64,000 nucleotides of DNA. It comes from Anolis carolinensis. Lineage: Eukaryota. The notes beneath the pieces are model-generated. The model saw only the letters and a program-made list of their open reading frames with translations. It was not told the origin of the DNA and made no database searches. The number at the start of each line of letters is the position of its first letter. Position 1 is the stretch's first letter. Both the position numbers and the translations under genes were made by a program. This document shows positions 6,140 through 63,117 of the stretch, one piece after another. Where the stretch lies: assembly GCF_035594765.1 (NCBI RefSeq), contig NC_085841.1:227075326-227139325 (forward strand), written 5' to 3'.

Positions 6140-6365
6140 TGGTTTGGCTTTAATTATTGTTTGTTTTATGAATTATAGTTAGTTTTAATTGTACTGTAGT
6201 TTTATATGATGTTTTAAATTTTTGTATTTATGATTTATATTTATGTCGAGTTTTTGTATTGTCTTAGATTCGTGTGGCATCGAATTACTGCTGAGCATTA
6301 GTCGTTCTGAGTCCCTCAAAGAGGAAGAGAGTGCAGGGTATAAAAAAGGAAGTAAATAAATAAAT
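6140..6365 (+). mobile_element. L2-type 3' tail
   Basis: T-rich tract, GTCGTTCTGAGTCCC stem-loop region, (TAAA)n end; resembles 23598-23645. Confidence 0.5.
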
Positions 6366-6435
6366 TGGGCTATGTGCTTTTAGCTTGCCTCCATTTTCAT
6401 TAGGAGACATTGCATTTAGGTACACTCAAGCCTGA

Positions 6436-6594
6436 GGCTGGATTTATACAGCCATATAATGCAGTTTGAGTTGCATTATAGAGTCAATGTAGACCCATGT
6501 AATGCAGTTCAGTGCAGTTCAAACTGCATTATATGGGTCTGCATTGACCATATAAGGGAGTCAAACTGCATTATATGGCAGTGGGGATCCAGCC
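6436..6594. mobile_element. Palindromic PIF/Harbinger-type MITE
   Basis: GGCTGGAT...ATCCAGCC long inverted repeat; TGA/TCA flanks. Confidence 0.65.
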
Positions 6595-7552
6595 TCAGCC
6601 ATTCTTGTCTATAAAAGAGCCTGTGACTGAAAAAGTTTGCTGAGGCTTGTAAGAAAAAAAAGACAAGGACTCCAAAGTTTAAAACAATGTGAAAAGTAAA
6701 CACGTGAAAATGGTAACAATGCAAATAATTTGCAGAAGAGTTTAAAGTCAATGTAATATCTCCTGTCTTAGGCAAGAATCACCCTCACAATTCATACACA
6801 AAAACACAGTATTTGAAGCTAGTAATCACACTGACAAACAGAAGACTGAAGAAAACCTTAGAATCAAGCTTGTGTTTGCATGTTAACAGCCAAACAGCTG
6901 GTTTAAATTTTAAATTTTGTATTTTTATTAGAACACTGACTCTTGTTTATCGTTATTGATTTTATTGGGTTATTATTGACTCACTGCACCCTGTGGGCCT
7001 ATTAGTGCAAAGCTAGTAAAGCATTAAAGGAAAACGTAGGCTTTTCAGTTCCTTGTGCTTACAGTGCTTGCTTTTTATCCCTGACTTTTTAAAGCAGTTG
7101 CTAATATGGAACAGTTTCACCGTAATACCCAAGGTCCAGCTATCATTTACTACTGAACAAATTACATTGTGCAGAGTATTTGGGAGGAAAGCATTCTGGC
7201 TCAGTTTATTCTTTATCATTCCTTGACATATTCAGGCAGAATTCATAGATGGGTCTATATCACATGCCTCCCTTGCCCGGGGGGGGGGGGGGGGGAGGGG
7301 ATCTGGATCTTAAAGAACTATAGGATACCTAGCAATCTGACAAGTGAAGCTTTTTCTTGAAATTGGGTGGAAAAAGCAGCTGATATAACCTTTAAAGGAG
7401 GTAATTAGACAAGGATGAAGAAATAGATTTATCACATCTATGTAAAATGACAATTAAACTAACAGTATTGTCTTGTAATTCAGTTGCATACAAGTTGATT
7501 TTTTAAATGAAAATAAATATGCCCTTCATCCTAGAAAACCTGAAAAATCTAA

Positions 7553-55249: not shown

Positions 55250-55401
55250 AAGGTAAAGGTAAAGGTTTTCCCCTGACATTAAGTCCAGTCGTGACTGACA
55301 CTGGGGGTTGGTGCTCATCTCCATTTCTAAGCCAAAGAGCCAGCGTTGTCCTTAGACACCTCCAAGGTCATGTGGCCGGCATGACTGCATGGAGCGCCGT
55401 T
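55250..55401 (-). mobile_element. Sauria SINE, 5'-truncated
   Basis: Tail and body; flanking repeat TTATAGAACACA. Confidence 0.88.
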
Positions 55402-56428
55402 AGGGTTATAGAACACAGGGGTGTACTAATTTCTGATATAACCTCACCTCTAAAGTATGTAAGGCAATATCATTATTTGCTATAGAAACTTACCATTACA
55501 TTTTCACTGTTATTTTCAGGAAGGGTTTTCAAAATTTTATTTCCAAGATGGCCACAAGAGAATGATAAATTTTGTTTAGTCTTTACCAATTTGGGGATGC
55601 ATTATATTCTTCCTTGTACTCCCTGCCCTAAATACCATACACATAGACTATTACTCTGTCAAGATATGTCTCCACACGATTTAATTTCTATGTGGGGAGA
55701 ATTCATTGTTTGAAAGAATATTCAGCCATGTGAGCTAGGTGCGTATGCACACTCACTCTGGCACACATGTATACTTCATTGGCACAGGCTCATCATTTCA
55801 TTGAGAGCATGGTCAGAAAAAGAGTTGCTTTCTTCAAAACTATAAAACAAACAGAGCACAGAAACCATACAGAACCAATAAATGGTGCTATCCATCATTG
55901 GTAGGAAAGGGAAATGTTTTGTTGTTATAACTGAAAGAACTCCACAGATTGGTATTCTAGGACTAAAAAGAGCAATATAACATGCTTAAATGCTTCACTA
56001 AAATTATATGTTTGTCAAAAGTTGACTAGAATATCCATATGAAATTTTAGATGATCCTCATCCTCATTCTCATCATCATAGAAAATGCTAACTTTGCGGG
56101 GGGACACTGCACAATGATAGCATTCTGTTTGCACTTCAATTGTTATGCCAATATCCCTTGGAATATAGCTTTTTTTTTTTGCAAGTACTTTTTATTGAGA
56201 TTTCTTTCAACACGAGGTACACAGACAAACAAGAATTAACTATAGGGGTAGGGGTGGGGTTTGTGGTGACACATACACAGATTGGGGTAAGGGTGCAATC
56301 AGGAAAAAAAGGGGGGGGGATGTGGGACATAAAAAAAAAAAGGGGGGGTAGGGGGGTTGGGCAGAGGGGGGATGGGGAGGTGATATTTCGACTTCCAATT
56401 ATGCTCACTAAGTCCATTACTTCAGTCC

Positions 56429-59400
56429 TTAATTCTTTTGTAGTTTTCTCTTTAAGTATTCCTCAAAATTAGACCAGTCAGTAGCCTTTAGTGGGGTGCC
56501 ATTATTTCTTTTGATCCAGAAGGATAGTTGGTCCATATTCTTGATTTCCATCACTTTTTCCAGCCACTGTTCTTTTGACGGTACTTGCGTTGACTTCCAG
56601 AGTCTTGCAATCAGGAGCCTTGCTGCGGTGATGAAAAAGGTGAAAAGTTTGTCGGTATTAGTGTCGATTCTGTCCTCGGGGTCATATAAACCTAGCAAAA
56701 GTAGTTCCGGCCTTTTCACAAATTTCGTCTTTAATATGTCATTACTCTCTTCCAGGATTGTAGTCCAAAAATTATCTAGTTTCCTACACTTCCACCACAT
56801 GTGGAAATAGGATCCTATTTGGGCTTTACACCTCCAGCATTTATTATTTGCGTCCTTATACATATGCCCTATTTTCTTAGGTGTTAAGTACCATCTATGA
56901 ATAAGCTTAAGCCAATTTTCTTTCATATCTACTGAGTACGTATATTTTATTTTTTTATTCCAAATCGACTCCCATTCGCACAATTGAATGGGTCTGTTTA
57001 TGTTCCTGGCCCATAATATCATAGAATTAGTTATTAAATCTGTTTCAATTTCCCAGGACAGTAGTTTATTATACAGTATGGATATATTCTTCCTCTCCAC
57101 GTGGATAAGTTTATCCCAAAAACCTTGTTCTTGATCAAATCCGACTATTTTGTCTCTTTTATATGCCTCATTAATTTGGAAAAATTGGTACCAGGACACA
57201 TTTTTGTTCAGTTTTTGTATTTCAGCTAATTCTTTTACTTTGGGGGGGTTGGATTTATCCTTTGCCATAATTAACAATTGGCTATAGGTCGGCCAAATCC
57301 GCCAACCTAATAGCCTTCTATGATCAGCTTCAATCGGGGATAGCCATAGTGGTGTTTTAGTGTAGAAGCGGGGTTTATATTTTTCCCATGTTCTCAATAA
57401 AACAGATCTAATAAAGTGGTTGCCAAATTGTTTGTCAATTTTCATTTTACCATACCATAAATATCCATGCCAACCTTTCTTTAATTCATGGCCTTCCAAA
57501 TTCAAAATTTTATTTTTTCCCAATTTGATCCACTCTTTTATCCAAAGAAGAGCACTAGCATCATGGTAAAGTTTTAGATTCGGGAGGCCAAAACCTCCCT
57601 GCGTTTTCGGTGCAATCATTGTGCTAAATTTGATCCTGGGTTTTTTGCCTCTCCAAATAAATTTTGTAATGTCTTTTTGCCAATCTTTGAATATCTTGGG
57701 ACTCCTTATAATTGGTAGGTTTTGGAATAGGTAAAGTAACTTTGGCAGGACATTCATCTTAATTATTGCTATTCTTCCCATTAGAGAGACATTTAGATTT
57801 TTCCATTTTTCCAGATCCCTTCGAATTTCTTTCCATTTCTCAATGTAATTTAAATCTAATAATTGATTATTTTTCGCTGATAGCCAGATCCCTAAGTATT
57901 TTAATTTGGACACTGTTTTTAACCCTGAGATATCGTATAGCTCTTTCTGTTTCTTTTTTGACATATTTTTGGTAAGGATCATTGTTTTCTTTGTGTTGAT
58001 TCTAAGGCCGGCCACCTTTCCATAATCTTCAATTTTTGAAAGCCAATTTTTAATATTCTGGATTGGATTTTCTATAATGCATATCACGTCGTCTGCGAAC
58101 GCCCGATACTTATAATCTTGTTTGTCAACTTTAGGGCCTTGCAAGTTCGAATCGTTTCTAATTACCCTGAGCAGGGTTTCTAATGCCATAATGAATATTA
58201 AGGGTGAGAGGGGGCAGCCTTGTCTCGTACCTTTGTTTATTTCGAATTTTTTTGTCTCCTGGCCATTGATTTGTATTTTTGCCCATTGTTCCTCATAAAT
58301 ACTGTTGATGCCATTTTGAATTTGAAAACCTAGATCCAATTCTTGAAATAACAATTTGAAAGAATTCCAATTTAAGTTATCGAAAGCTTTCTCTGCGTCC
58401 AAGGAGAGAAGGCCCACTTCTGTTTGATTATGTTGTTCATAGTATTCCAAAACATCAATTATTATTCTTACATTGTCCTTAATCGATCTAGCTGGGAGAA
58501 AGCCCGTTTGGTCTTCTCCTATCCACTCTGCAAGGAAGTCCTTCAGCCTATTCGCCAGGATCTTTGTGAAAATTTTATAATCTGTATTTAGGAGGGAGAT
58601 GGGTCTGTAGTTTTTCACATCCGACATATCTAAACCCTCTTTGGGTATCACCACTATCGTTGCCTCCTTCCAAGAATCTGGTATAACTTTGCTTTGGAGG
58701 GCCTGATTCATTAATTTTTTCAGGAAGGAGGTCACTTCTTTTAATCCTAATTTATAAAAGCCCGCAATAAATCCATCCGGCCCCGGGGTTTTATTGCTGT
58801 CTACATTGTTGATTACTTTAAGAATTTCCTCCTCTGTGATTTCTTTATTGAGTTCGCATCTTTGCTCTTCTGTGATTTTATCCAATTGTAATTTACCTAG
58901 GAACTCTGTTATGGCCTCGGGATTGATATTATCTTTAGAGTATAGGTTCTCGTAATATGTTTGAAATACTTCTTTTATTTCCTCATCTAAATTTACTATT
59001 TTGCCTTCGGTTCTGATTTTAATAATTTGTCTGCTCTGTTTCTTCTTCCTTATTAAACGTGATAACCATTTCCCCGGTTTGTTTGCATTTTCAAAAGCGT
59101 ATTGTTTAACCCATTTAATTTGTTTTGCCAATTTCTCTAAGTCTCTACTCTCTTTCATTTTATTTAATAGATCTAGATTTCTTTTTATCTTTTTGTTTTT
59201 GGGGTTGGCTTTTAAGTCCTTTTCCTTCATCTCAATCTCCTTATTTAAACTATTCCATTCTGCTTCTTTTTGTTTTCGTTTAGTAGCATTTAATTGGATT
59301 AAGAATCTTCTCGCCACTGCTTTATAAGCGTCCCATACAATTTGTGGGTTGATTTCGTTGGTGTCATTGATATTAAAGTATTCTTTCGTCATCTCTTTAA

Positions 59401-60193
59401 TTTTATCTATGTCTTTCTTATCTTTTAATAGATTTTCGTTTAGCCTCCATCTCCTTACAAACCTTTTTTTATTAAGTTCCATTACTAATGGGCAGTGGTC
59501 CGATAAGTCTCTAGGTAAAATACGTATGTCCGATACCTTTGTCACAAGGGATTTGGAAGCCCATATCATGTCGATCCTCGACCATGAATGGTGCCTATTT
59601 GAATAGTGTGTAAAGTCTTTTATTCGGGGGTTTAATTCTCTCCACGTATCTACTAAATCCAGTTCATCTTTTAATGCTAGGAGGCTTTTAGGGAGGGAGG
59701 TGGCTTCTTTAACTTTCTTTGGTTGTTTAGTTTTATCTAATTCTTTATCTAATACTCCATTAAAGTCACCAAAAATTATAATATGGTCAAATTCTACGTT
59801 ACTAATATTTTCTCTCAATATTTTGGTGAACTTTGTTTTAGGGCCATTTGGGGCATAGATGTTACAAATTAGGGTTTTTTCCTCCTCCAGGTCAATTAAA
59901 ATTGCTATGACCCTACCTTCGTTGTCTTTAAATACTTCTTTTGCTGTGAGGTTATCATCTACGTATAAAGCCACTCCCCTTTTTTTATTGGCATCCGCCG
60001 AGACAAATACCTTCCCTAGCTGATTGTTAATCAAAAGATTGGAGTGCGTACGTTCAATGTGTGTTTCCTGTAAAGCTATAATACTGTAATTTCCTTTTCT
60101 TAATTTGTTAAATAATCTTTTCCGTTTAATGGGGGTGTTCAGCCCGTTAATATTGTTTGAGAAACATTTTAAATGAGTACAGACATTACTCAT
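56429..60193 (-). CDS. L1 ORF2p: APE endonuclease, reverse transcriptase, C-terminal CCHC
   Basis: NINGLN, LQETH, NIYAPN, GDFN, SRIDM, SDH; PGPDGF; YRPISLLN, DAEKAFD, GTRQGCPLSP, FADD, KYLGI; CWRC..HMWWKC. Start placed at the last in-frame ATG before the EN motif (frame is open to 60241). Confidence 0.95.
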   Translation of the reverse strand: MSNVCTHLKCFSNNINGLNTPIKRKRLFNKLRKGNYSIIALQETHIERTHSNLLINNQLGKVFVSADANKKRGVALYVDDNLTAKEVFKDNEGRVIAILIDLEEEKTLICNIYAPNGPKTKFTKILRENISNVEFDHIIIFGDFNGVLDKELDKTKQPKKVKEATSLPKSLLALKDELDLVDTWRELNPRIKDFTHYSNRHHSWSRIDMIWASKSLVTKVSDIRILPRDLSDHCPLVMELNKKRFVRRWRLNENLLKDKKDIDKIKEMTKEYFNINDTNEINPQIVWDAYKAVARRFLIQLNATKRKQKEAEWNSLNKEIEMKEKDLKANPKNKKIKRNLDLLNKMKESRDLEKLAKQIKWVKQYAFENANKPGKWLSRLIRKKKQSRQIIKIRTEGKIVNLDEEIKEVFQTYYENLYSKDNINPEAITEFLGKLQLDKITEEQRCELNKEITEEEILKVINNVDSNKTPGPDGFIAGFYKLGLKEVTSFLKKLMNQALQSKVIPDSWKEATIVVIPKEGLDMSDVKNYRPISLLNTDYKIFTKILANRLKDFLAEWIGEDQTGFLPARSIKDNVRIIIDVLEYYEQHNQTEVGLLSLDAEKAFDNLNWNSFKLLFQELDLGFQIQNGINSIYEEQWAKIQINGQETKKFEINKGTRQGCPLSPLIFIMALETLLRVIRNDSNLQGPKVDKQDYKYRAFADDVICIIENPIQNIKNWLSKIEDYGKVAGLRINTKKTMILTKNMSKKKQKELYDISGLKTVSKLKYLGIWLSAKNNQLLDLNYIEKWKEIRRDLEKWKNLNVSLMGRIAIIKMNVLPKLLYLFQNLPIIRSPKIFKDWQKDITKFIWRGKKPRIKFSTMIAPKTQGGFGLPNLKLYHDASALLWIKEWIKLGKNKILNLEGHELKKGWHGYLWYGKMKIDKQFGNHFIRSVLLRTWEKYKPRFYTKTPLWLSPIEADHRRLLGWRIWPTYSQLLIMAKDKSNPPKVKELAEIQKLNKNVSWYQFFQINEAYKRDKIVGFDQEQGFWDKLIHVERKNISILYNKLLSWEIETDLITNSMILWARNINRPIQLCEWESIWNKKIKYTYSVDMKENWLKLIHRWYLTPKKIGHMYKDANNKCWRCKAQIGSYFHMWWKCRKLDNFWTTILEESNDILKTKFVKRPELLLLGLYDPEDRIDTNTDKLFTFFITAARLLIARLWKSTQVPSKEQWLEKVMEIKNMDQLSFWIKRNNGTPLKATDWSNFEEYLKRKLQKN

Positions 60194-61256
60194 CTTTGAG
60201 GATTCCATCATCTTCTGTTGGTTCTCCCGTGTCCGAGTCATCTTGGTCTGTGATCAAGTCCAATTCAGCAACTGTTGGGTCACTGTCCTTCGGCGAATCA
60301 AATCTTCTCTTTTTAGTTTCTTTAGGATTTTTACCATTACTTGAGGATAATGATAATCTATTTGCATTTAAATCTTTCTTTAACATCCTGTAAAAGTCCT
60401 TTGCTTCATCCTCCGAAGTGATCCATACTCTGTCATCTTTGTATGTAGCCATTAGGCCTTCATATTTTTCCCATCTATATTTTATTTGTCTTTTCTTGAG
60501 TTCGTCTGTTAGGAAGTAGTACTTCCTTCTTCTGTTTAATATCGATTTTGGCAGTTCCTTTAATATGATCAGCTTTCTGTCTTTGTACCATAAAGGGTTT
60601 ATAGCGTTTTTTCTGAGTACTTCATCTCTTGTGGTTTTCTTCAGGAAGTGAACCATAACGTCCTTGATTACTTTGTTTTTCTTAGTAAAGTTCGACTGAA
60701 TTCTATATACCCTGTCGATTTGGCCGCAGGCTTCCTGTTCCGTGCATTGTAGAATCTTAGCTGTTATTTGTGTGATCACCCAACCAATATTTTCTTTTTC
60801 CTCCTCTTGAATGTTCCTATATCTTAATTGGTATTCCAGTGATTGGAATTCCAGTTTTTCCTGTATTTTTTCCATTTTCTTCTCTCTCTCCTCCATGGAC
60901 TCCATTTTCTCTTGTAATTTCATTTGCATTTTGTCATTTTTCCTGTTCACTATTTTAAGTTCGTTAATGTCATTAGAGTTTTTAATAAGTTCTTTTTTCA
61001 TAGCCCCCATCTCTCCTCTCCACTCTTTTTTCAACTCCGCCAGCTCTTCTTGCAGAGTTTTTTGTTGCAAATCCTGTTTTTTAGCTATCATTTGGACCTC
61101 ACTTTGCAATTGATCCTGTTTCTCCGAAATTTTCTTAATCTCTCTCAAAATATCTTTTAAGCCCCCCTCCTCTGGAAGGGAGGTTCTTCGCACATTTAGC
61201 CTAGAGTCCTTATTATCTTTGTTATCTTTGTCTGTTCTCCACTTGGGTGTCGCCAT
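60186..61256 (-). CDS. L1 ORF1p (coiled coil, RRM, CTD)
   Basis: 356 aa; heptad-rich N-terminal half; QLRYRNIQE and IDRVYRI motifs equivalent to NLRI.GIPE and IERAHR; lies upstream of ORF2. Confidence 0.92.
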   Translation of the reverse strand: MATPKWRTDKDNKDNKDSRLNVRRTSLPEEGGLKDILREIKKISEKQDQLQSEVQMIAKKQDLQQKTLQEELAELKKEWRGEMGAMKKELIKNSNDINELKIVNRKNDKMQMKLQEKMESMEEREKKMEKIQEKLEFQSLEYQLRYRNIQEEEKENIGWVITQITAKILQCTEQEACGQIDRVYRIQSNFTKKNKVIKDVMVHFLKKTTRDEVLRKNAINPLWYKDRKLIILKELPKSILNRRRKYYFLTDELKKRQIKYRWEKYEGLMATYKDDRVWITSEDEAKDFYRMLKKDLNANRLSLSSSNGKNPKETKKRRFDSPKDSDPTVAELDLITDQDDSDTGEPTEDDGILKDE

Positions 61257-61984
61257 AGCCCCGGCTTGTTATGCTCGTTGGGACCACTGGGATTACAATC
61301 TAGTACTAAGGTCAAAGGGTTAATGACTGATGGGGGGAGGAATAGGAGGGACAGGAGAGATAGAAAATCTAGAGACCCGAACGCGGGGGATCCAAGTTCG
61401 GGTACTACCTTCTACTTGATTTATATTTTCTCCTTCCTGCGTCCGTCGCTTTCCTTTGGCCTCGTTTTCTTTGGATTTCCTTTGGATTCAGTATCCCCTG
61501 CTTATTCGGTCTATGAAATCCTCTTCACGTATCAGCCCTGTGTCCTTCTCACTATATCCCCTCCGGAAAATGCTCCCGCCTGGAAAGTTCCTATCTCCTC
61601 CTCGTACTGGTTGCTAGCGGCGCCACTACTTCCGCATACGTCAGGTCCTCCCTCGATTGTTTAAAGAAGGTAGCCCGTAGACTAAACAATATGGCTCCAA
61701 GGTCGTATCAAATCAACAGCCAACTCCAGCACTATGGGGACTGACACCAAACTTCCCACGCTGCCTCCCAGGCGATCCTTTTTCCTTCCCTTTTCCTCTT
61801 TCCACCTCCGTTCTTCCACCTCTTCCTTCTCCTCCCAACCACGCCAGTGGAGTCACAGTAAGATGGCTTGGATTATTTATACTTTGAATATTTGCCTCTA
61901 TCTTAAGTTAACTAAGAAGACTTCTGATATGTCGTATCGCTACTGAGATAACTCACCATACGGCTTAGTCTTCCGGATTACTTG

Positions 61985-62323
61985 TTGTCAAATTAAGCAG
62001 GCGGCGGCGATTTGTTTGCCCGTCGCTGCTGTTTTTTACTCCGATGGGTTCGGCGGTGGCTTGGCTGGCAGATAATGCGGTTGTTCCCGCTTCCCGCTGT
62101 CGACCCGCCGGCCGAGGTCCTCCGGACCCACTAGAACCTCACCCTTGAGGGGCGAGGGTCGTTGGGGCCGTCGGAGCGATCCTCTGCCACCGGCGTCTTT
62201 CCCCCAATCTCGATCCGAGGGGAAAGAGGGAGCTGTCGCTCTACCAGGTCAGATCTGCGGTTGGCACACCAAGAGCTCTCGGTGGACCCAGCCTGTCGCC
62301 ATTGCCCCGCCTCCGGAAGTCCC
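61985..62323 (-). promoter_or_regulatory. L1 internal CpG-rich promoter
   Basis: 5' end GGGACTTCCGGAGGCGGGGCAATGGCG: ETS core, GC box, YY1-like ATGGCG; high CpG density. Confidence 0.65.
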
Positions 62324-62467
62324 CCCTTGGAATATAGCTTAATGAGGCACCAGGCTAAAGATTTTATAAAATCACAAGCATTGAGTCATGGTAGTGAAAG
62401 TGGTGTCAAACTACCTTAATTCTACACTGTAGATACATTCATTGTGCCCATGATATTGTGTAAGAAA

Positions 62468-63117
62468 TAGGTTTGTGCACAGATTAAGAGTGGTCAGTTC
62501 CCTTTGGCCGATATGGCTTGTTTGGCTCGGCTGGATGGCTGTAATGCTCAGCCGTCACATTTTTTCATCCATAATGGGATCCCATAGCAGCCGATCATGG
62601 CAGCCTCTCCCCTATTCAGAATCACGCGGCATGGAGAGGCTGCCTCATGCTTCTCGCATGGGGTTTCCCTATGAGCTCTGCCTGTTGGGCCAATCAGAAT
62701 ACAAAATTGTCTTACACACTGCTTCCTTAACTCCATTGCTCAAACGCAGACTTCCTTGAAAGGAAGAAAGAAAGGGGTCCCAGGAGGGGTGTTTCCTTAA
62801 CCCAGTTCGTCAAACCCAGGCTCCCTTGAAAGGAAGATAGGAACGGGTCCCAGAAGGGGTACTTCCTTAATCCCATTGCTCAAACCCAGACTACTTTGAA
62901 AGAAAGAAAAGAAAGAATCCCAGGAACGGAAAGGGGAACCTCGTAAGTTCTCAGTTCTCATCAATGAGCCAGACCTTCACAGAATTTTCAGTTGCTTGGC
63001 TGAAAACAGATTTTCCTGTTAGCCAATTTTCGGGAGGCTCCTAAAAATGGATCTGGGTACCCAATGAAATTTGGTTACCAAAAATGGATCACCCTCCAAT
63101 CGAAATGCACAAGTCTA
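62468..63117. mobile_element. Non-autonomous hAT (TAGG-end) with internal tandem repeat
   Basis: TAGGTTTGTGCA / TGCACAAGTCTA; TSD GTAAGAAA / GTGAGCAA; three units of about 70 bp at 62723-62930. Confidence 0.75.

What the first reader, a model, noticed from the sequence alone, without database searches (positions are those of the whole stretch)
56155..62340. Intact full-length L1, candidate active source element
Seen: perfect 17-bp TSD, GCTT|AA target, short poly(A), both ORFs free of stops and frameshifts, all EN/RT/CCHC motifs present, and an undecayed CpG-rich 5' UTR. Known: most L1 copies are 5'-truncated. Inference: a very recent insertion, possibly polymorphic and retrotransposition-competent.
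Basis: partly seen in the sequence, partly recalled or inferred. Interest (0 to 1): 0.7.

Follow-up and report, generated by a model that had tools for sequence, protein, structure and literature searches.

The report
Young, polymorphic full-length lizard L1
This is a complete, 6.15-kb LINE-1 jumping gene in a green anole genome that is missing at the same spot in other lizards, so it likely jumped recently, but its enzyme carries a change at an otherwise conserved position that likely impairs it, making it an ordinary young copy rather than a proven active source.

Summary
Observation confirmed: a 6,152-bp minus-strand L1 between exact 17-bp duplications, both ORFs open, catalytic motifs present, CpG-rich 5' UTR. 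ORF2 matches human L1 ORF2p (E 1e-176) and ORF1 is predicted to fold like human ORF1p. The host is the green anole, and the element fits the published lizard clade 1. Polymorphism is now shown: 2 of 6 runs laid carry the empty site with one target copy, 1 carries the filled junction, 3 give no call. It is the only full-length copy with both ORFs open in a five-copy youngest subclade (0.2-0.9% apart). Against 'active source': ORF2 has Ser at RT position 627 (aromatic in 139 of 148 homologues, Ser in 0) and Arg at 312 (Gly in 88 of 113), seen in no sibling, and no daughter is proven. Full-length polymorphic L1s are common in anoles (about 40% of polymorphic L1 insertions, PMC5389967). The scan noted other anole L1s before, not this locus. 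Verdict: new member of a known kind, low interest.

The parts
56155..56171 (.). Target-site duplication, 3' side of the element (17 bp)
   Evidence: exact repeat of 62324-62340; one copy only in the empty allele, joint 56154->62324 with both=17
56172..56180 (-). Poly(A) tail, 9 A
   Evidence: sequence
56181..56428 (-). 3' UTR with poly-C/poly-T tracts; AATAAA at 56196-56191
   Evidence: sequence; C/T tracts and AATAAA described for lizard L1 in PMC5381506
56429..60241 (-). ORF2: APE-type endonuclease, reverse transcriptase, CX2CX8HX4C. 1270 aa from the first ATG; likely true start is the ATG at 60193 (1254 aa), overlapping the ORF1 stop by 8 nt
   Evidence: start-codon conservation
58361..58363 (-). 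ORF2 codon 627 = Ser, private to this copy; aligns to human Phe612 just after the RT motif DAEKAFD
   Evidence: Phe in 14 of 14 sibling copies covering it; aromatic in 139 of 148 homologues, Ser in 0; human alignment
59306..59308 (-). ORF2 codon 312 = Arg, private to this copy; aligns to human Gly297 in the tower baseplate
   Evidence: Gly in 14 of 14 siblings; Gly in 88 and Arg in 5 of 113 homologues; baseplate is residues 254-300 in PMC10830420
59588..59590 (-). ORF2 codon 218 = His, private but at a variable position (human also has His)
60186..61256 (-). ORF1, 356 aa: coiled coil, RRM, C-terminal domain
   Evidence: predicted model matches human L1 ORF1p, Foldseek E 6e-9; profile hits human ORF1p, E 5e-7
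61257..62323 (-). 5' UTR, 1,067 bp, 61 CpG in two CpG-rich zones; begins GGGACTTCCGG...ATGGCG; internal promoter is inferred
   Evidence: lizard clade 1 start consensus in PMC5381506
62324..62340 (.). Target-site duplication, 5' side of the element (17 bp)

Best explanation
This is a full-length lizard clade 1 L1 that is present on some green anole chromosomes and absent from others, likely inserted recently by target-primed reverse transcription, and this particular copy is likely a handicapped young offspring of an active lineage rather than its working source. Inferred mechanism, by homology to human L1: the ORF2 endonuclease nicked 5'-GCTT/AA-3'; the T-ending 3' OH primed reverse transcription on the RNA's poly(A); copying ran to the 5' end; a second cut 17 bp away left the duplication. 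The CpG-rich 5' UTR would act as an internal promoter, ORF1p as the RNA chaperone, and ORF2 would be translated by re-initiation at an ATG overlapping the ORF1 stop. Shown: anatomy, empty site, close siblings, purifying selection on the lineage, three private ORF2 residues. Inferred: that Ser627, and perhaps Arg312, lower ORF2p activity.
For: Empty allele with one TSD copy in X2 (depth 8.9, 89 bases on the short side) and X13 (29.9, 84 bases), from two studies; filled junction in X3 (contig 55378-56245). Youngest subclade of 5 copies, support 100/99, 0.20-0.88% from this copy. dN/dS against the 7 copies 2-12% away is 0.03-0.08 (ORF1) and 0.09-0.12 (ORF2), so the lineage was replicating under selection. 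Of 200 class-conserved ORF2 positions this copy departs at 8; 7 are family-wide and only 627 is private. Sibling L034 has both ORFs open and 0 private ORF2 residues. In human L1 only 16% of trialanine mutants kept near-normal activity (10.1101/721357).
Against: All catalytic residues are intact. This is the only full-length two-ORF copy in its subclade. Its nearest relative L081 is a 5'-truncated copy 2 bases away over 1,718 bp of ORF2, and this copy has a zero end branch in the 3' tree, which fits a parent. Arg is seen at 312 in 5 of 113 homologues, and Ala, Thr, Cys or Pro occur singly or twice at 627, though those homologues need not be active. The private bases were not confirmed in reads, so an assembly error is not excluded. 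No activity assay exists.
Confidence: 0.6

Rival explanations
1. This copy is a competent source element: both conserved-site changes are tolerated, and it is the parent of the truncated copy L081.
For: Only full-length two-ORF member of the youngest subclade. It shares a derived base at 56666 and the 3' UTR tract pattern with L081 alone. Its branch has 4 synonymous and 3 replacement changes in ORF2, more synonymous than neutral drift predicts (P about 0.03), so part of that branch was under selection.
Against: Ser at 627 is in 0 of 148 homologues. This copy has one private base (58037) inside the span of L081 that L081 lacks, so the two are equally well sisters. L081 begins downstream of all three private residues and cannot show their inheritance. 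The 3' flank occurs once in the assembly, so no transduction was found.
Confidence: 0.27
2. The insertion was competent when it arrived and produced L081; the damaging-looking bases belong only to this haplotype or are assembly errors, and other filled alleles are clean.
For: The post-split private base at 58037 shows that this sequence changed after parting from L081. Contigs covering 59308 in X1, X2, X3 and X6 show only the family base.
Against: Those contigs merge all family copies and drop minority variants, so they cannot test one locus. The private changes are substitutions outside homopolymers, several of them synonymous, which looks like real divergence (inference).
Confidence: 0.12
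3. The element is an old, fixed insertion or an assembly artefact.
For: None found.
Against: Empty site in 2 runs and filled junction in 1; 9 private bases of 6,140; CpG not decayed.
Confidence: 0.01

Closest known systems
Anolis carolinensis L1, lizard clade 1 (families L1_AC1 and L1_AC3b; Boissinot and Sookdeo 2016, PMC5381506)
   Same: Length 6,152 (clade range 6,151-6,703), long 5' UTR with two CpG zones, start motif GACTTCCGG.GN8ATGGCG, ORF1 about 1,070 bp, overlapping ORFs, CX2CX8HX4C, C/T-rich 3' UTR. The 5' end is visibly homologous to the published L1_AC1 and L1_AC3b starts (compared by eye).
   Different: Identical to neither published start (0 of 4 window 19-20-mers found in the part of the supplement held). 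Its 5' UTR is 1,067 bp against 1,339 and 1,216. The family number among the 20 anole families was not determined.
Polymorphic full-length anole L1 insertions (Tollis and Boissinot 2013, PMC3787681; Ruggiero et al. 2017, PMC5389967)
   Same: Young, full-length, segregating. 454 polymorphic full-length L1_AC1-16 loci were found in 13 genomes.
   Different: This locus was not matched to a genotyped one: 8 published primers were tested (5 flanking, 3 internal), with no hit at the element. Most primers of that table were not tested.
Human L1 (ORF1p 2YKP, ORF2p 8SXT)
   Same: Same two-protein anatomy, EN and RT catalytic residues, TT/AA-type target, TSD, poly(A).
   Different: CX2CX8HX4C instead of CX3CX7HX4C; ORFs overlap instead of a spacer; C/T-rich instead of G-rich 3' UTR; no conserved ORF0-like antisense frame; activity never assayed here.

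Membership tests
L1 clade non-LTR retrotransposon | ORF2 with N-terminal APE endonuclease followed by RT, closest to L1 ORF2p | tested here: met
   Pfam PF03372 and PF00078; human L1 ORF2p E 1e-176 against R2 E 6e-28
L1 clade non-LTR retrotransposon | ORF1 with coiled coil, RRM and CTD | tested here: met
   10 best fold matches are human ORF1p; PF02994 in 5 of 19 aligned members, not in the query alone
L1 clade non-LTR retrotransposon | C-terminal cysteine-rich motif | tested here: met
   CX2CX8HX4C at aa 1135, aligned to the human motif
L1 clade non-LTR retrotransposon | AATAAA, poly(A), variable TSD, TT/AA-type nick | tested here: met
L1 clade non-LTR retrotransposon | PCNA-interacting (PIP) box | tested here: inconclusive
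   the strict pattern did not match; the segment aligns to the human PIP helix with both Tyr kept but Lys for Gln
Anole lizard clade 1 L1 | 6.1-6.7 kb, long CpG-rich 5' UTR, start GACTTCCGGTGN8ATGGCG, little or no spacer | tested here: met
   6,152 bp, 1,067-bp UTR, start motif with one mismatch, ORFs overlap
A named family (L1_AC1, L1_AC3b or other) | Near identity to the family consensus over the full length | tested here: inconclusive
   only the first 400 bases of each published consensus are held; related but not identical
Young polymorphic insertion | Empty site in other individuals | tested here: met
   2 of 6 runs empty, 1 filled, 3 no call
Active source element | No damaging change at conserved residues | tested here: not met
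   Ser627 in 0 of 148 homologues; Arg312 in 5 of 113; damage itself is inferred
Active source element | Daughters carrying its private bases or its 3' flank | tested here: inconclusive
   L081 shares one derived base and lacks another; no transduced flank
Active source element | Transcription and retrotransposition activity | not testable with these tools
   no run on record as RNA; no assay possible

The most novel reading that the evidence does not exclude
This copy is the living source of the youngest L1 sublineage in this anole lineage, parent of L081, and works with Ser at an RT position that is aromatic in nearly every other L1. It would be a ready natural clone for a first functional assay of a reptile L1, including ORF2 translation from an ATG overlapping the ORF1 stop and the open question whether lizard ORF1p is a trimer.
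Probability: 0.2. Interest if true: 0.4.

Novelty: new member of a known kind. Interest (0 to 1): 0.2.

Why it matters
It matters little alone: young, polymorphic, full-length L1s number in the hundreds in green anoles. It is a clean example of why open ORFs and catalytic motifs do not prove competence. It also supplies natural test pairs (this copy against L034) for a reptile L1 reporter assay; two narrow paper searches found no such assay.

Tried and rejected
ORF0-like antisense frame in the 5' UTR (61323-61664, 113 aa): no Pfam match; open with the same end in only 2 of 9 full-length copies, frame-shifted in L032 and stopped in the other 6; rejected as chance. The 93-aa frame over the 3' UTR (56417-56136) has no Pfam match and was not pursued. 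First-ATG start of ORF2 (60241): present in 6 of 13 near copies covering the junction, and cut off from ORF2 by a stop in 3 of those (L034, L035, L084), whereas the ATG overlapping the ORF1 stop is kept in 13 of 13 near copies and 9 of 9 distant ones. Naming the family with published primers and motifs failed. Expression: no RNA holder listed, no evidence either way. Runs X1 and X6 gave no call at the junction; the X12 contig stops matching at 56171 with 7 unlaid letters, a hint of the empty allele only. Host gene: 0 Pfam matches in 87 of 108 open frames of 75 aa or more in 1-56100; small exons would be missed. Per-residue human scanning data for Gly297 and Phe612 could not be seen: the journal version is not held and preprint supplements are closed. 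ORF1 alone gave no L1 match by single-sequence search; profile and fold searches were needed.

Full report
1. Observation. The element lies on the minus strand at 56172-62323 (6,152 bp) between two exact 17-bp repeats that occur nowhere else in the window and cannot be extended. The tail is 9 A behind AATAAA. ORF1 (356 aa) and ORF2 (1270 aa from the first ATG) are open. The 5' UTR holds 61 CpG, o/e 0.83, against 0.18-0.26 in the flanks; the ORFs are at 0.51-0.62.

2. Identity. ORF2 carries Pfam endonuclease and RT domains and matches human L1 ORF2p over residues 21-1247 at E 1e-176, far above R2. The EN motifs, DAEKAFD, FADD, YLG and CX2CX8HX4C are present. ORF1 gave no L1 hit alone. A 19-sequence profile found human ORF1p (E 5e-7), and the predicted model (mean pLDDT 75) had human ORF1p as its 10 best fold matches. 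Of the 18 ORF1 homologues, 16 are named Anolis carolinensis and 2 Anolis sagrei, and their contig lengths equal those of G000, so the host is the green anole. Length, start motif, two CpG zones, ORF overlap and C/T-rich 3' UTR match lizard clade 1 of Boissinot and Sookdeo (PMC5381506; abstract, Results parts 1, 3, 4, sections 13 and 15, supplement part 1 and searched passages read). The 5' end resembles L1_AC1 and L1_AC3b without being identical. Only 400 bases of each consensus are held, so the family name stays open.

3. Polymorphism. Six distinct runs were laid, of 20 that hold the stretch. In X2 and X13, from two studies, one contig joins 56154 to 62324, skipping 6,169 bases with 17 bases fitting either side: the empty site with a single target copy. 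In X3 one contig runs from the unique flank through the TSD and tail 74 bases into the element. X3 may be the individual assembled, so it is not independent support. X12 gives a hint only; X1 and X6 give no call. X13 is labelled 'RNA?' by guess but covers the flank at depth 30. Zygosity and frequency were not established.

4. The family in this assembly. Searches with the 5' UTR, the 3' end and the RT region scored 40 of 100, 703 and 1,035 candidates, so counts are lower bounds for distant copies. Thirty copies were fetched. A tree of 28 of 31 rows (L038, L040, L042 left out for lacking the region) places this copy with L081, L082, L083 and L031 (100/99), beside a second young group L034/L035/L084 about 3.6% away. 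Of 9 complete full-length copies at 86% identity or more, 3 have both ORFs whole: this one, L034 and L035. L031 has an ORF1 frameshift and Glu for the catalytic RT Asp; L032 has a frame-shifted ORF2 end; L033, L036, L037 and L039 have broken ORF2. dN/dS against 7 copies 2-12% away is 0.03-0.12: the lineage has been replicating under purifying selection.

5. Is this copy the source? For: it is the only full-length two-ORF member of its subclade, and L081 (5'-truncated, 1,978 bp, own TSD) differs by 2 of 1,718 ORF2 bases and shares a derived base at 56666. Against: each of the two has one private ORF2 base in the shared span, so sisterhood fits as well, and the 3' flank occurs once in the assembly. 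ORF1 has no private residue; ORF2 has three. His218 is at a variable site. Arg312 replaces a Gly found in 14 of 14 siblings, in 88 of 113 diverse homologues and in human (Gly297, in the tower baseplate, where mutations reduce retrotransposition: PMC10830420, passages read). Ser627 replaces a Phe found in 14 of 14 siblings and in human (Phe612); 139 of 148 homologues are aromatic and none has Ser. These counts come from pairwise alignments of the best 150 hits. Position 627 is the only one of 200 class-conserved positions at which this copy departs from its own family. Human ORF2p is intolerant of change (only 16% of trialanine mutants near wild type; 10.1101/721357, abstract and section 14 read), but the residue-level table could not be seen. 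That these changes impair the enzyme is inference, and the bases are unconfirmed in reads.

6. Mechanism. Inferred from human L1: nick at GCTT/AA, priming on poly(A), full-length copying, second cut 17 bp away. ORF2 likely starts at the ATG in GATGAGTAA (60193), overlapping the ORF1 stop by 8 nt. That ATG aligns with human Met1 by extrapolation and is kept in 13 of 13 near and 9 of 9 distant copies, while upstream ATGs are not. This fits the termination/re-initiation model cited in PMC5381506; it is untested here.

7. What is known. Anole L1s are young and often polymorphic, and full-length ones segregate at lower frequency (PMC3787681; abstract, Results part 1, section 7, primer table read). 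In 13 genomes there were 454 polymorphic full-length L1_AC1-16 loci, and about 40% of polymorphic L1 insertions were complete (PMC5389967; abstract, Results part 1, section 15 read). Novick et al. 2009 was not seen, only cited in these papers. Two narrow searches for a lizard L1 activity assay or intact-copy survey returned 0 papers, which is weak evidence of absence. Earlier scan notes cover other anole L1 copies, none near this locus.

8. Verdict. A real, young, polymorphic full-length L1 of a well-described lizard clade. The claim of recency is shown; the claim of competence is open and more likely false than true. Interest 0.2.

Noticed in passing
L034 (G000:C4, from about 10321109), L035, L084: A second very young sublineage about 3.6% from this copy; the three are identical over 889 bp of ORF2. 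L034 has both ORFs open and no private ORF2 residue.
   Followed up: partly
L085 (G000:C3:194886000-194894400), element ends at 2851 and 7165: A 5'-truncated sibling appears to have a target duplication of about 47 bp, much longer than the 10-20 bp of the others.
   Followed up: no
L031 (G000:C6:25682800-25691200): Closest full-length sibling (0.6%): 1-bp ORF1 frameshift, Glu for the catalytic RT Asp, 25 private bases, and about 11 extra bases between its 5' TSD and the element start.
   Followed up: partly
L032 (near 1830-2805) and L035 (near 1346-1564): Insertions inside full-length siblings: about 1 kb at the 5' UTR/ORF1 border in L032 and about 217 bp in the 5' UTR of L035; their nature was not examined.
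   Followed up: no
P0001-P0014, P0016: Public annotations call anole L1 ORF1 proteins cingulin-like, rootletin-like, myosin-6-like and similar, as if host genes; P0001 is 94% identical to this ORF1.
   Followed up: partly
window 60193-60186: The conserved ORF1 ending Asp-Glu-stop encodes the likely ORF2 start in another frame; overlaps of 25 and 46 nt in the published table may reflect first-ATG calls (inference).
   Followed up: partly
window 55250-55402, also near 2100, 9700, 12930, 28450, 36020, 38190: Copies of a very high-copy short repeat of 145-330 bp (contig depth near 1e6), probably a SINE; not identified.
   Followed up: no
window 62377-63035: The 5' flank is itself repetitive and includes a 70-bp tandem repeat at 62722-62915.
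   Followed up: no
window 61323-61664 (+): A 113-aa antisense frame in the 5' UTR, not conserved among siblings.
   Followed up: yes
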